Positions 4,314 to 16,693 of a stretch of 32,129 bases of DNA are shown here, piece by piece. Position 1 is the first letter of the stretch. Each line of letters opens with the position of its first letter. The DNA is taken from contig NW_021829619.1 of NCBI RefSeq assembly GCF_006345805.1, forward strand, positions 1 to 32,129, written 5' to 3'. The notes under the pieces are model-generated. The model saw only the letters and a list, made by a program, of their open reading frames with translations. It searched no databases and was not told where the DNA came from. This DNA is from Octopus sinensis (Eukaryota). A program made the translations under genes and the position numbers.

Positions 4314-5550
4314 GTGGGTAAGACTATCGAGGCTTACGAGGAGGTGGCAGGAGCAAAGATTAACCGGGAAAAGTCAGTCGGCTTGCAGCTCGGCACCTGG
4401 GTTGGCAAGTCGATGCCTTCAGACAGCTTTGTTGGGCGCTGGACGGAGGGACCGGTTAAGTTGCTGGTAGTTTGGTTTGGACGAGGCCTCCAGAGAGAGA
4501 AGAAATGGACGGAGGTATTGAGCAGGGTGGCTGCAGTAGTCAAGACCTGGCCTTGGCGATGGCTATCCCTGAAAGGGAGGGCGGAGGTGGCCAATATGTT
4601 TACCGCATCGGTCCTTACCTACCGCCTGACCGTCGTGTCCTGTCCGGATTCGTGGTTGATCAGGTTGGAGAGGCAGCTCTTTCGCTTTTTGTGGAAGGGC
4701 GGGTTACTACTTGTGAAACGCTCTGTCTGCTGTCAAAAGCCTTTAAAGGGAGGTTTAGGGATGCGTTGGTTAATGATGCGCAGACATGCGTTGAGGTTGA
4801 GGCACCTCTGGATTCTCCTGGATAGTGAACGGGTGTGGTCTCTGATGGCCAGACAAATGTTCCCCGAGTTCAAAAGTTTTTGCGAACAGGAAGCCTGGTG
4901 TTCTCGTAGACCGAGGTCGAGTGAGTGGTATAAAGAGTGCCGTAAGGCCCTCTTGCTATTCCGGCGCTCGGGCAACGCCAGCGGTGGGGGTTCCACAAAG
5001 ATTTTATATAGTGGGTTGGTAGAGTCTGAATGCTACGATGGCCTGGGGGTGACTCTAGGTCTCGGGTTTATTCAACTGGACAACCTGTTTCACCGTACAT
5101 TCGGGTTGAGAGCGTTGGACAACTTCAAAAAGTCCTCAATCTGGCAATGCTACAGAGGTGCCTTGTCCCTTTGGGTTAAAGCTCGCAAGACACGGTAAGC
5201 GTCAGTCACCGACCTGTCCAAGATGCGGGGTGGGGGAACAGTGAAACCGCCCCTCACGCTATTGTTCAGTGTCCGGAGATAACTGAAATGTGGCCTTATG
5301 CTGAACATCTGTTATCTGGCGAAGGAAGAGTACAGCTGTCGACTGAGTCAATTATTAGAATTGATCCACCGGGAGTTTTGATGAACGGAGGTAAGAAATG
5401 TTTTTTCACGGTTGTCGCAATAGCGAAAGAGGCAGTATTGAAGACAAGAAGAAAAGGAATTAAGACAGGCAACTTTATCTCTGGCCACAATTTACGATCA
5501 TTTTTTCTTTTCATTTGAAAAGGAAGCTGTGACTGGAGAAGAGATGTCTA
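4314..5550 (+). mobile_element. 5'-truncated, decayed Tx1/L1-clade ORF2 (RT C-terminal part plus Cys/His zinc finger)
   Basis: YEEVAGAKINREKS...VKLLxVWFG...LSLKGRAEVAN...LFRFLWKG...KGGLG (ORF 4314-5198), then frameshifted CPRCG...ETAPHAIVQCP (~5213-5275), typical of Tx1-type ORF2p. Confidence 0.9.
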
Positions 5551-6784: not shown

Positions 6785-7127
6785 TCACACACATTTATAT
6801 GCATGATTAATGAGAGAGACGAGAAATGGAAGATACAAGAATGTTCATTGATCACTACAATTGTTTTGACCCATCTAGCATTGATCCCCCAAGGCTGGGA
6901 TACTGAACAAATGGTTTAGAAGTATGTAGTCTGTGTAGATGTATCAGGTGATTAAAAGATGTATCTCGTTAAAATAGCGTCTGCCCCGCTAGTTTTCTTC
7001 CCGGTATGTATATGCAGAAGCATCAAATTAAGGGATACAGCTTCCAGTCTTTTGACCAAGAACAAGGTAATATCTATTCTTATCAGCTTATATATATATA
7101 TATATATAACCCTACCATTTATTGATC

Positions 7128-9675: not shown

Positions 9676-10282
9676 CATACATATAGTTATATATATGTAT
9701 GTACACACACACATATCTGTATACATATGCATGTGTGTACAAAAAATGAACGTATAAAAAGCGATGAATAAAAATATCGTGACATTATTGATTTCTTCTG
9801 TCTAATTCATCTTCATCCACCATCTTTTGTATTTTTGTGTGGTTTTTATCTTCTATTTATCTTCTTCTTTTCTCCAACTTATTCTTTTTTCCCTTCGTTT
9901 TCTTCACGATTTTTCATCTCTAAATATGTTTTGTCATCTCAATTATACTAAAAAATGATTTTTTTTAAAGAATTTTTTAAAATAAAAATAAACGCCTCAT
10001 ATAACACTTTTTAAAAAAAAAGTCAGATTCTTCTCTTTTGTTGTGATATTACAAATTTATATTTCTCTTCTCGCTTGGAAGAAGACCAACATGTCTGCAG
10101 GAAGCTTATAATCGATTCAATGAATTTTATTCCACGGTAAATTACAGGTATTTATTTATTATATTTATGTACAATGAAATGATGAAAAAAAAAGAGAAGT
10201 AATTTCGAGTGGAAATTGAACGTGAAACACTCAGGGTACGAAAACCGTACGTTTTTGCTTATGATATTAGTTTCATCTTTTT

Positions 10283-10311
10283 AGGTGGTGAGCTGGCAGA
10301 AACGTCACCAC
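10283..10311 (+). mobile_element. 5' head of SINE family 2, interrupted by an insertion
   Basis: aggtggtgagctggcagaaacgt matches the SINE2 head, which resumes at 12055. Confidence 0.8.
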
Positions 10312-12054
10312 TTCGTTTGACGTCGGTCGTGTTTTTTTACGCTCTGTAAAATTCGGTAAAAAAGAACAAAAAGCGTGGTTGTTGTTGTGGAAATTCTGAA
10401 CGGCGTTGACGCGGTTTCGCGTTTCGCTCGTTCAGCGCGTTAAACTTTCTTCTGTTTTGGCGGCCGTTTTCGGTCTGTCAGACAGAAGGAAATGGACTAT
10501 GAGTCTCTAACAGACTTATCCACGACACAGATGAGGAACTGGAACGGCAATTGCAATGAAGCTGATGGAAGAAAAGCTGGAGTTTTCGAGTCTTATCAAG
10601 ACTCGCCTACGTCTGAAAGGAGCTAGAAATGGCAGCGAGGAATTTGGAAGAGAAGCTGAGTTATACCTATGCCGGTGTAACCAAGAAGGCGGAAGAGAAA
10701 GGGGTCGACATGGCCAAGTTGCCAAGTTACCAGAAATACATGAAAAAGGAAAGCGGTGAGGTGGAACTATCACCGACACCCAGGAGAAAAGAATGGTATG
10801 ATAAGAGGACCATTATTTACAGGGTGTTCGCAACGAAAGGAAGAGGGTAGAAGTTGTAACCATGGAATGGATAGAGGAAGCCCTGCGAAGAACTGAGGAG
10901 GAAATAAACTTTCTGACTCGAGGATCCAAGTACGTTACCGTAGTTGTGCATTTCAAAACTGAGTCTGCAGCGAGGAAGATGGCGCGAAGGCGGTGAAGTC
11001 GGAAAAGGTAACACTGTTACCTACGTATTTAAACAGGAGGATTACACGAATAAGGGTGGAGGGATGCCACCAAACGTGGAGGCAGAATGGATTGTGTGGC
11101 GGCTGTGATCAGCGGCCACGAGGACGAAGTGGATATTCTCCATGCCTCGGTTAAGTCCGAGGGCTGGAGAGGCGTAACAGTGGAGCTGAACGTACAGGCA
11201 GAGACCGAGGTACTGGTGGACCTGACGAAAGCATCAGAACTGGGAGAAGTGATCATGAGAGTGTGGGTGGAGGGCAGGGCTCCACGTTGTTACAAGTGTG
11301 GCCTGATGGGGGTCACATAAGAGCCTTCTGCCCTCCCCCAGGGAAAGAAATGGATCCCGAACCAGAGAGAGAGAAGCAGAAACCAGAGGAGAAGGAAACA
11401 GAGGAAGAGAATACACAGAAATGGAAGGAAGCTGGAAGTAAGAGGAAGAGAAGAATACGTGGAAAAGAAAATAATATGGAACTCCAATCCACCCCAAAAC
11501 CACCCACGCCCTCTGAGTCCCACCCTATCCATGCAGACATTGAACCCACCCGCTCCCCCCCAACAAGAAAACAAAAGAAAAAAAAGAATACCACACACAA
11601 GAGATTGAAATCGATATCAGGCCTACATTTGTACTATGACTGAACAGAAAGAAGTTAAAAGTCTAATGGAAGAGTATAAATGGTATGATGTTGGTGAGAC
11701 TAGGTATGCTGTGATTGAAAAGAAGAACATAGGTGACTTTATGGTGATGTGTGAATGCGAGAATTGGGAGGTGAAAGATATAAGAATGAGCGATGAATTC
11801 GTGGAAAATATGGATGAGTATTTCGGAGTAAGAATGGATATGGAATTTGTTCGTATTGGCAAGGAACATTCAAGTGACTATGAAAAACAAAGGACAGGTA
11901 AGTGATGCTGACGGACGGGGCCGTTGGTATCGCTTTCATTTAATCATTTTTTCGTTTAACAATTCATGTTCATAAAGTTTAATTATAATGTTATATGTCC
12001 CCATGTTTCTTAGTGTCCCTTTCTGTGTCGCCCCTAGTGGGTAATAAAGAAATA
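10306..12054 (+). mobile_element. Non-autonomous ORF1-only Tx1/L1-like retroelement (HAL1-like architecture), frameshifted
   Basis: Disrupted ORF ~10492-11905 with an RRM-like region and a zinc knuckle RVWVEGRAPRCYKCGLMG/HIRAFC (CX2CX4HX4C). No EN/RT coding follows. Ends in gcccctagtgggtaataaagaaata. TSD agaaacgt at 10298-10305 and 12055-12062. Confidence 0.8.
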
Positions 12055-12193
12055 AGAAACGTTAGCACGTCGGGCGAAATGTTTAGCGTTATTTCGTCTG
12101 TCTTTACGTTCTGTGTATAAATTTCGCCGAGGTCGACTTTGCCTTTCATCCATTAAGGGCCGATAAATTAAATAGCAGTTGCGTACTGGGGTC
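12055..12193 (+). mobile_element. Remainder of the interrupted SINE family 2 copy
   Basis: agaaacgttagcacgtcgggcgaaatg...gaggtcgactttgcctttcatcc...ctggggtc. Confidence 0.85.
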
Positions 12194-12223
12194 TTCATTA
12201 AAAAAGGTAGAAATACAAAAATA

Positions 12224-12926
12224 GGTGCAGGCATGTTTGTGTTAAGAATCTTGTTTTAAAACCAAGTGTTTTCGGGTTCAATTCCACTGCACAGCGTCTT
12301 GGCAAGTGTCTTCTACTATAGCCCTGCGTCGACTAATGCCTTCTGAGTGAATTTGATTAACGGAAACTGTGTGGAAGCCCGTTTCCGTTATATATATATA
12401 TAAAACAGATTATCTTATGTTTTTTTTAATCAGAACAATAGGAGACATGTGGGATGGAGAGTCGCTGAAGAGGTCACAGGATGTTTGACGAAAGATATCA
12501 GCCAAAAGATGATTTAAGAACAATAATAAAGCTGAACAGAAGACTAAATATTTGGTGCCTGTGGTCAACTGGAAAAAAAGGGCATCACCAAATATAACAG
12601 TGTGTATATATATATATATGGGAAAAAATCAAGGTAGAAAATACTAAAATAATTTTATAAAAAACATTTCAGTACCGGTTTCAGTCATTGAAACTTCTTC
12701 AACTGTAAGCATGAAAAACAATAAATTCTGGAAAAATTAAATGAAAAGTTTTTAAAAAGAATATTTGCATAGTATTCATAAAACTATGTATGTAAACAAA
12801 GTTTGGTTATTTAGAAGCATTGTTAACATTTTTTTCTGCAATATAAGGACTTCTGTCCTACTTAATGCTATTCAGCATTATTATTATGCATTTGAGAGTA
12901 AAATATTCCCATATCTGTGTGTGTAA

Positions 12927-16461: not shown

Positions 16462-16693
16462 TATTTCTTTACTACCCACAAGGGGCTAAACATAGAGGGG
16501 ACAAACAAGGACAGACATAGGTATTAAGTCGATTACATCGACCCCAGTGCGTAACTGGTACTTAATTTATCGACCCCGAAAGGATGAAAGGCAAAGTCGA
16601 CCTCGGCAGAATTTGAACTCAGAACGCAGCGGCGGACGAAATACCGCAAAGCATTTCGCCCGGCGTGCTAACGATTCTGCCAGCTCGCCGCCT
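16462..16693 (-). mobile_element. Full-length SINE family 2 (A tail) with a long TSD
   Basis: Complete head and tail. Direct repeat ctttggtctctatatatat at 16446-16464 and 16692-16710. Confidence 0.9.

What the first reader, a model, noticed from the sequence alone, without database searches (positions are those of the whole stretch)
10283..12193. ORF1-only Tx1-like element inserted into a SINE's tRNA-like head and sharing its 3' tail with that SINE family
Seen: the SINE2 head (10283-10305) is split by a 1.75-kb element and resumes at 12055. The TSD is agaaacgt, extendable to 14 bp with 2 mismatches. The insert encodes only a gag-like ORF1 (CCHC knuckle, charged linker, extra C-terminal segment 11636-11905) and no EN/RT. 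Its last ~45 nt (tgtccctttctgtgtcgcccctagtgggtaataaagaaata) match the A-type SINE2 tail (tgtcccctctatgtttagccccttgtgggtagtaaagaaata). Known: Tx1-clade elements are often target-specific for multicopy RNA genes or repeats, SINEs borrow the 3' ends of partner LINEs, and HAL1-type ORF1-only elements exist. Inference: a three-part system in which an autonomous Tx1 mobilises both this half-element and the SINE, while the SINE also supplies the target site.
Basis: partly seen in the sequence, partly recalled or inferred. Interest (0 to 1): 0.8.

Follow-up and report, generated by a model that had tools for sequence, protein, structure and literature searches.

The report
Half-LINE nested in octopus SINE heads
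An octopus jumping gene that encodes only a predicted RNA-binding protein sits inside a very common short repeat, stacks head to tail, and ends in the same tail as one form of that repeat, so both likely borrow the same, still unidentified, copying enzyme.

Summary
Observation confirmed. A 1,749-nt element (10306-12054) splits a SINE head between two copies of AGAAACGT, encodes only a broken RRM/CCHC-type ORF1, and shares a 41-nt tail with A-type SINEs. It is a multi-copy family, not a one-off deletion: depth is flat along it in 4 of 4 runs laid, contigs bridge ORF1 stop, 3' UTR and tail without ORF2, and Octopus vulgaris gene models carry its C-terminal segment on 20 large contigs. In one run the main path goes tail, AGAAACGT, then branches to the SINE or to the element's own start. 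Target preference is well supported but not counted, and some other flanks exist. The autonomous partner was not found, so 'Tx1' and 'one enzyme moves both' remain inference; 0 of 3 A-type SINEs in the window sit at this site. Precedents exist for each part (HAL1/HeT-A; Tx1-Mar with SINEU). A SINE as target that also shares the tail was not found in 9 paper searches. This scan noted the same kind of system before on other DNA (three notes). New variant of a known kind.

The parts
10283..10305 (+). 5' part of host SINE head up to and including the first duplicated 8-mer
   Evidence: blastn to intact heads
10298..10305 (+). left target-site duplication AGAAACGT, overlapping the predicted A-box/D-loop
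10306..12054 (+). ORF1-only element, 1,749 nt, multi-copy family
   Evidence: flat depth in 4 runs; bridging contigs
10306..10491 (+). 5' UTR; its first 6 nt match the SINE sequence after the site at 4 of 6; a subfamily appears to start near 10328-10331
   Evidence: joint 12054->10331 and depth at 10328
10492..11905 (+). ORF1, broken in this copy by at least 6 frame changes
   Evidence: tblastn of Octopus homologues; indel table
10810..11287 (+). region homologous to the predicted RRM part of Octopus ORF1-like proteins
   Evidence: model of homologue P0098 with weak RRM fold hits; Atlas lead to ZCCHC3 RBD clusters
11288..11331 (+). single CCHC zinc knuckle, split by a frame change near 11310
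   Evidence: zf-CCHC in 7 of 10 alignment members
11332..11600 (+). charged, Pro/Lys-rich linker
   Evidence: translation; homology to P0093
11621..11905 (+). C-terminal segment, likely the last domain of ORF1p; predicted small alpha/beta fold, no recognised family
   Evidence: 78-98% identity hits in O. vulgaris; in-frame linker in gene models
12014..12054 (+). 3' tail shared with A-type SINEs; predicted GCCC/GGGU hairpin; AATAAA at 12043
12055..12062 (+). right target-site duplication AGAAACGT
12055..12193 (+). rest of host SINE (B-type body letters; its own tail is missing)
16462..16693 (-). comparison copy: full A-type SINE with the shared tail and a 15-17-nt duplication in non-SINE DNA

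Best explanation
A 1,749-nt multi-copy element that encodes only an ORF1-type protein sits between two copies of AGAAACGT in an Octopus SINE head, ends in the same 41-nt tail as A-type SINEs and forms head-to-tail chains; it likely borrows endonuclease and reverse transcriptase from an unidentified autonomous LINE (probably Tx1 clade) whose nuclease would prefer this site. Shown: the anatomy, family status, tail sharing, chains, and repeated use of this junction. Inferred steps: (1) the element arose from a LINE by loss of ORF2 and spread as a unit; (2) its RNA, with an AATAAA signal, is recognised through the tail by the partner's ORF2p; (3) nicking at the SINE A-box and target-primed reverse transcription duplicate 8 nt; (4) each insertion regenerates the site, so later copies stack; (5) its ORF1p coats its own RNA or co-assembles with the partner's; (6) the A-type SINE took the same tail and uses the same enzyme, with much looser targeting.
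For: Family as a unit: depth is level from about 10366 to 12021 in 4 of 4 runs and 0 on the left flank (10150-10221) in 2 of them; contigs cross the ORF1 stop into the 3' UTR (X10 record 7, depth 736; X14 record 13, 0 differences) and the UTR into the tail (X8 record 29, depth 4,309, 0 differences; X1 record 1). 22 + 19 O. vulgaris proteins match the C-terminal segment, on 20 different contigs of 41-226 Mb (hand count). Chains: 32 of 91 fetched proteins with the segment hold 2-3 copies; 44 of 72 listed accessions have a neighbour within 3 numbers, null mean 1.1, maximum 12 in 10,000; joint 12054->10331 at depth 1,453 and 247 in X7. Site: in X1 the only element-type path (768 nt, depth 33.8) runs unbroken through AGAAACGT and stops at 12062; one contig goes on into the SINE (depth 8.9) and one into the element's own first bases. 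X1 is near-identical and may be this DNA's source, but the tandem junction is not the window's locus. Contigs spanning tail and SINE head occur in 4 of 4 runs. Precedent: tandem SINEU-3 copies sandwich a TSD at a Tx1-Mar target (PMC4494074, section 14). O. vulgaris has 13 recently active L1-Tx1 families (PMC13282606, Table 1).
Against: No autonomous element with this tail or ORF1 was found; the window's own L1/Tx1-like ORF2 fragment (4314-5540) does not share the tail. RRM + CCHC ORF1 is not diagnostic of Tx1: the L2 and CR1 lineages carry all five ORF1 types (PMC4120745, abstract). 0 of 3 A-type SINEs in the window sit at this site. Of 13 'behind' loose-end rows shown (19 of 51 rows shown in all), 5 leave before or within 5 nt of the duplication into unrelated sequence. 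Short matches appear not to be laid, which undercounts random flanks, and junction contigs of 39 nt cannot be assigned to this element rather than to SINEs or other tail-sharing families. The X7 tandem joint lacks the 8-mer. 0 of 91 O. vulgaris proteins with the C-terminal segment include the knuckle, so no intact full ORF1 of this family was seen. Consecutive accessions can be isoforms.
Confidence: 0.7

Rival explanations
1. Same anatomy and targeting, but the element got its tail from the SINE (template switch or 3' capture) and the partner is not Tx1, for example an L2/CR1-group or other LINE that also moves the SINE.
For: ORF1 type does not fix the clade (PMC4120745, abstract; PMC5203782, passages). 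Mollusc SINE tails are linked to CR1 and L2 in bivalves (PMC4824008, passages). Similarity ends abruptly near 12014.
Against: AATAAA end, 8-nt duplication and preference for another repeat fit Tx1 (PMC4494074). Other upstream sequences join the same tail (6 'before' loose-end rows), as expected if several LINE-derived families carry it.
Confidence: 0.17
2. No true target specificity: the tail's AGAAA end anneals to any AGAAA-like nick, the SINE is simply the commonest such site, and chains grow by unequal crossing-over or tandem duplication from a few founder insertions.
For: The tail ends in AAAGAAATA and the site begins AGAAA. SINE depth exceeds element depth by about three orders of magnitude (summed depth). 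Non-SINE flanks exist. Units within a multi-copy gene model are often identical.
Against: Unbroken main path through the whole 8-mer in X1, diverged SINE heads after the junction in X8 and X10, and 16 separate multi-model clusters among 44.
Confidence: 0.1
3. A decayed, internally deleted single LINE copy with a truncated SINE stuck to its end.
For: This copy is heavily frameshifted.
Against: High-depth contigs bridge stop, UTR and tail; dozens of O. vulgaris copies.
Confidence: 0.03

Closest known systems
Tx1-Mar with SINEU-1/2/3 in crocodilians (Kojima 2015, PMC4494074; passages and sections 14-15 read)
   Same: Non-autonomous elements insert at one site of another abundant repeat, stack in tandem around a TSD, and show strong (90%) or weak (13-23%) preference; a Tx1 partner is inferred.
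   Different: Target there is a Mariner DNA transposon and the passengers are non-coding. Here the target is a SINE head, the passenger encodes ORF1, and the target family shares the passenger's tail. The partner is identified there, not here.
ORF1-only non-autonomous LINEs: HAL1 (L1), HeT-A (Jockey), Ag-Sponge (CR1) (PMC5786205, PMC5753468; passages read)
   Same: ORF1 kept, ORF2 lost, spreads as a family; the protein is proposed to multimerise with the partner's.
   Different: ORF1 here is RRM + single CCHC with an unrecognised C-terminal domain, not Transposase_22. Those passages list no Tx1-derived example and no SINE target. HeT-A chains are telomeric (recalled).
Dada DNA transposons in tRNA/snRNA genes (PMC3706591; passages read)
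   Same: TSD lies in the Pol III A box; tandem copies are separated by the TSD.
   Different: DNA transposons with a transposase, targeting true RNA genes.
Octopus tRNA-derived SINEs OR1/OR2 (named in PMC4824008 and PMC4758252 passages; the 1994 paper not read)
   Same: Abundant tRNA-headed Octopus SINEs.
   Different: Whether the host SINE is OR1 or OR2 was not tested.

Membership tests
ORF1-only non-autonomous LINE (HAL1/HeT-A/Ag-Sponge kind) | ORF1 present, ORF2 absent | tested here: met
   bridging contigs
ORF1-only non-autonomous LINE (HAL1/HeT-A/Ag-Sponge kind) | amplified as a family in this short form | tested here: met
ORF1-only non-autonomous LINE (HAL1/HeT-A/Ag-Sponge kind) | retrotransposition marks (TSD, distinct 3' tail, no terminal repeats) | tested here: met
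   8-nt TSD, AATAAA tail, no terminal repeat in self-BLAST; no long poly(A)
ORF1-only non-autonomous LINE (HAL1/HeT-A/Ag-Sponge kind) | ends shared with an autonomous counterpart | tested here: inconclusive
   no counterpart found; the one ORF2 fragment in the window lacks the tail; no genome held
HAL1 proper (L1-derived) | mammalian-type Transposase_22 ORF1p | tested here: not met
   no such Pfam hit in 9 window pieces or 10 alignment members
Tx1 clade | RT phylogeny within Tx1 | not testable with these tools
   element has no RT; partner not available
Tx1 clade | type I ORF1p (RRM + CCHC) | tested here: met
   zf-CCHC; RRM by weak fold hits, best E 7.5e-3, on a homologue's model and an Atlas lead at 0.89; necessary but not diagnostic
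Tx1 clade | target preference (over 20% of flanks of one kind, criterion in PMC4494074) | tested here: inconclusive
   strongly suggested by X1's main path and junction contigs, but no unbiased count
SINE/LINE pair with shared tail | 3' tail similarity | tested here: met
   element versus 3 of 3 A-type SINE tails, 0 of 2,000 shuffles; LINE side missing
SINE2 (tRNA-derived) host | tRNA-derived head with A and B boxes | tested here: inconclusive
   head folds into tRNA-like hairpins, z -2.3 and -2.8; ARAGORN and Rfam give no tRNA
CORE-SINE OR1/OR2 | CORE domain and identity to published consensus | not tested
   no consensus available to compare
LTR element or retroviral gag | long terminal repeats and capsid domain | tested here: not met
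   no terminal repeat; nucleocapsid matches limited to the knuckle; fold hits are RRM-like

The most novel reading that the evidence does not exclude
A closed loop: one LINE moves a SINE, that SINE's promoter box is the LINE's landing site, and several ORF1-only half-LINE families with their own C-terminal domains ride the same enzyme. Each copy carries a near-copy of the target at its front end (12 of 14 nt), so every insertion renews the landing pad and chains grow inside the genome's commonest repeat while breaking the SINE's promoter.
Probability: 0.3. Interest if true: 0.78.

Novelty: new variant of a known kind. Interest (0 to 1): 0.55.

Why it matters
It would add a Tx1-type, SINE-targeted member to the short list of ORF1-only retroelements and give a natural test of why such elements keep ORF1. 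A target supplied by a passenger of the same enzyme links the copy numbers of LINE, SINE and half-LINE, and each insertion separates a SINE's A and B boxes. A practical side result: dozens of 'hypothetical' O. vulgaris proteins (91 fetched here) are pieces of this repeat spliced together by gene prediction.

Tried and rejected
No whole genome is held, so copies could not be collected. Word-index search with 11054-11317 against longer proteins: 26 candidates, 0 hits. Exact tail pattern in metagenome contigs: 0. Pfam on 9 window pieces: nothing significant; the Ephrin hit on the C-terminal segment (E 0.013, lower only in repeated models) is treated as chance. Atlas for that segment: best 0.77, uninformative. 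Its model (pLDDT 63) gave no Foldseek match at E <= 0.001; the wide structural search could not be run, machine busy. Homology of the segment to the C-terminus of O. bimaculoides P0096: not significant (E 0.5). Idea that the segment is a second ORF started by an ATGA stop/start overlap: rejected, as O. vulgaris models read through in frame from the upstream strand. Idea that the ORF2 fragment at 4314-5540 is the partner: its only match to the 3' UTR is a T-run, equalled by unrelated windows. No RNA holder listed. P0102 (bacterial pilin-like, E 9e-4) was dropped from the 10 phmmer hits as chance. Sequence look-up among earlier findings: 0. SINE tails do not fold better than shuffles (3 of 3), the element tail does (z -2.5), so a conserved tail hairpin is not established.

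Full report
Observation. The SINE head at 10283-10305 matches intact heads elsewhere in the window, and the body resumes at 12055. The 8-mer AGAAACGT flanks a 1,749-nt insert on both sides and overlaps the first hairpin of the head, where the A box lies (box placed by eye from the recalled consensus). The last 41 nt align to 3 of 3 A-type SINE tails in the window above all 2,000 shuffles, and to 0 of 3 B-type tails. AATAAA stands at 12043. The insert has no frame large enough for ORF2.

The protein. phmmer with the 71-residue piece 11096-11308 gave 10 hits among 1.84 billion proteins: six are named from O. sinensis, O. bimaculoides or O. vulgaris, three are unnamed, and one pilin-like protein was dropped as chance. 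They are 35-52% identical to the piece, so several diverged ORF1 families exist. Laid back on the window they cover about 10695-11577 across frame changes. Seven of 10 alignment members have a zf-CCHC match. A model of the longest homologue (P0098, pLDDT 63) gives RRM-like hits, none at E <= 0.001, and the Atlas lists CCHC clusters at 0.92 and ZCCHC3 RNA-binding-domain clusters at 0.89. This is a type I ORF1p, which PMC5203782 (passages) calls consistent with Tx1 in non-mammalian animals, but which also occurs among L2 and CR1 elements (PMC4120745, abstract). The C-terminal segment is in frame with the strand just upstream in O. vulgaris models, so it is likely ORF1p's last domain; its fold is unassigned. 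This copy has at least 6 frame changes and is dead or misassembled.

Family status. Twenty runs from 10 studies and four organism labels hold part of the insert, 14 of them half or more of its words. In the 4 runs laid, depth is level along the insert and absent on the left flank in two. Contigs cross the ORF1 stop into the UTR and the UTR into the tail with 0-4 differences. So the short form and its tail are the family's main structure. The segment matches 22 near-length and 19 longer O. vulgaris gene models at 78-98%, on 20 large contigs (hand count).

Chains. Of 91 fetched proteins carrying the segment, 29 hold two copies and 3 hold three, spliced together by gene prediction. Of 72 accessions listed for 7 clusters (lists are capped), 44 have a neighbour within 3 numbers against a null mean of 1.1; isoforms could inflate this. 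In run X7 a joint links the tail to the element's start near 10331 (depths 1,453 and 247). In run X1 a contig goes from the tail through AGAAACGT into the element's first bases.

Target. In X1 the single element-type path (depth 33.8) runs through the whole 8-mer and ends at 12062, where it forks to the SINE (depth 8.9) or to the next unit (depth not shown). Read loosely, about a quarter of copies would be last in a chain; depth is not a copy number, low-depth flanks may be pruned, and X1 may be this DNA's source. Contigs spanning tail and SINE head occur in all 4 runs, and summed depth at 12065-12068 exceeds that at the element's 11949 end in all 4 (258 vs 34; 468,404 vs 117,759; 348,442 vs 5,497; 12,728 vs 570). 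This hints that other tail-bearing families use the same site, but short matches appear not to be laid, which favours such contigs. Against strict targeting: 5 of the 13 'behind' loose-end rows shown go into unrelated DNA before or within 5 nt of the 8-mer (19 of 51 rows shown). In the window, one A-type SINE has a 15-17-nt duplication in non-SINE DNA and two are followed by headless B-type bodies; none is at the site.

Mechanism. Most likely an internally deleted LINE derivative kept ORF1 and the 3' tail and is copied in trans by target-primed reverse transcription, with the partner's endonuclease choosing the SINE A-box. Each insertion leaves the 8-mer on both sides, so later copies stack. 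The partner, its clade, the role of ORF1p and shared mobilisation of the SINE are inferred, not shown.

Comparison and novelty. ORF1-only LINEs are known from L1, Jockey and CR1 (PMC5786205, PMC5753468; passages). Tx1 families and their passengers target other repeats and stack around a TSD (PMC4494074; sections 14-15 and passages). Dada transposons duplicate part of the A box (PMC3706591; passages). O. vulgaris has active L1-Tx1 families (PMC13282606; first third and passages read, no mention of this system seen; supplement not read). PMC9115989 has no occurrence of 'Tx1'. Nine searches listed no paper on an ORF1-only element targeting a SINE that shares its tail; subscription papers and Repbase were not covered. 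Three earlier notes of this scan describe the same kind of system, two in this genome; two of them mention an enzyme-bearing partner, which I could not check.

Verdict. Interest 0.55.

Noticed in passing
window 4314-5540 (+): 5'-truncated C-terminal part of an L1/Tx1-type ORF2 (judged by eye; weak hit E 0.12 to PDB 8c8j RNA-directed DNA polymerase; no Pfam hit); lacks the shared tail.
   Followed up: partly
window 6784-6400 and 31864-31350 (-): Composite SINEs: an A-type copy joined at the same base to a headless B-type body; the second has a further headless unit. The same joint (12054->12090) appears in runs. Possibly a dimer family or a second target site.
   Followed up: partly
window 16693-16462 (-): Full A-type SINE with a 15-17-nt target-site duplication in AT-rich, non-SINE DNA.
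   Followed up: yes
window 12193-12400 (+): Host SINE lacks its own tail; a second, different SINE-like repeat follows at about 12238-12400, with relatives at 2023-1863 and 8318-8188.
   Followed up: no
proteins P0041, P0033: O. vulgaris gene models join this element's segment to a different ORF1 family's knuckle and linker (P0041) or to a charged linker and an endonuclease-like piece (P0033), suggesting mixed clusters.
   Followed up: partly
proteins P0097, P0100, P0101: Related ORF1 proteins lie on contigs of 1,431-1,759 nt, the size of an ORF1-only element; may also be fragmentation.
   Followed up: no
window 11896-11905 (+): A strong splice-donor-like sequence just before the stop is used by most O. 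vulgaris gene models to join the segment to downstream DNA, inflating the annotation with false genes.
   Followed up: partly
window 7037-7120 (+): Weak Rfam U2 snRNA match (31 bits, below the gathering score of 46).
   Followed up: no
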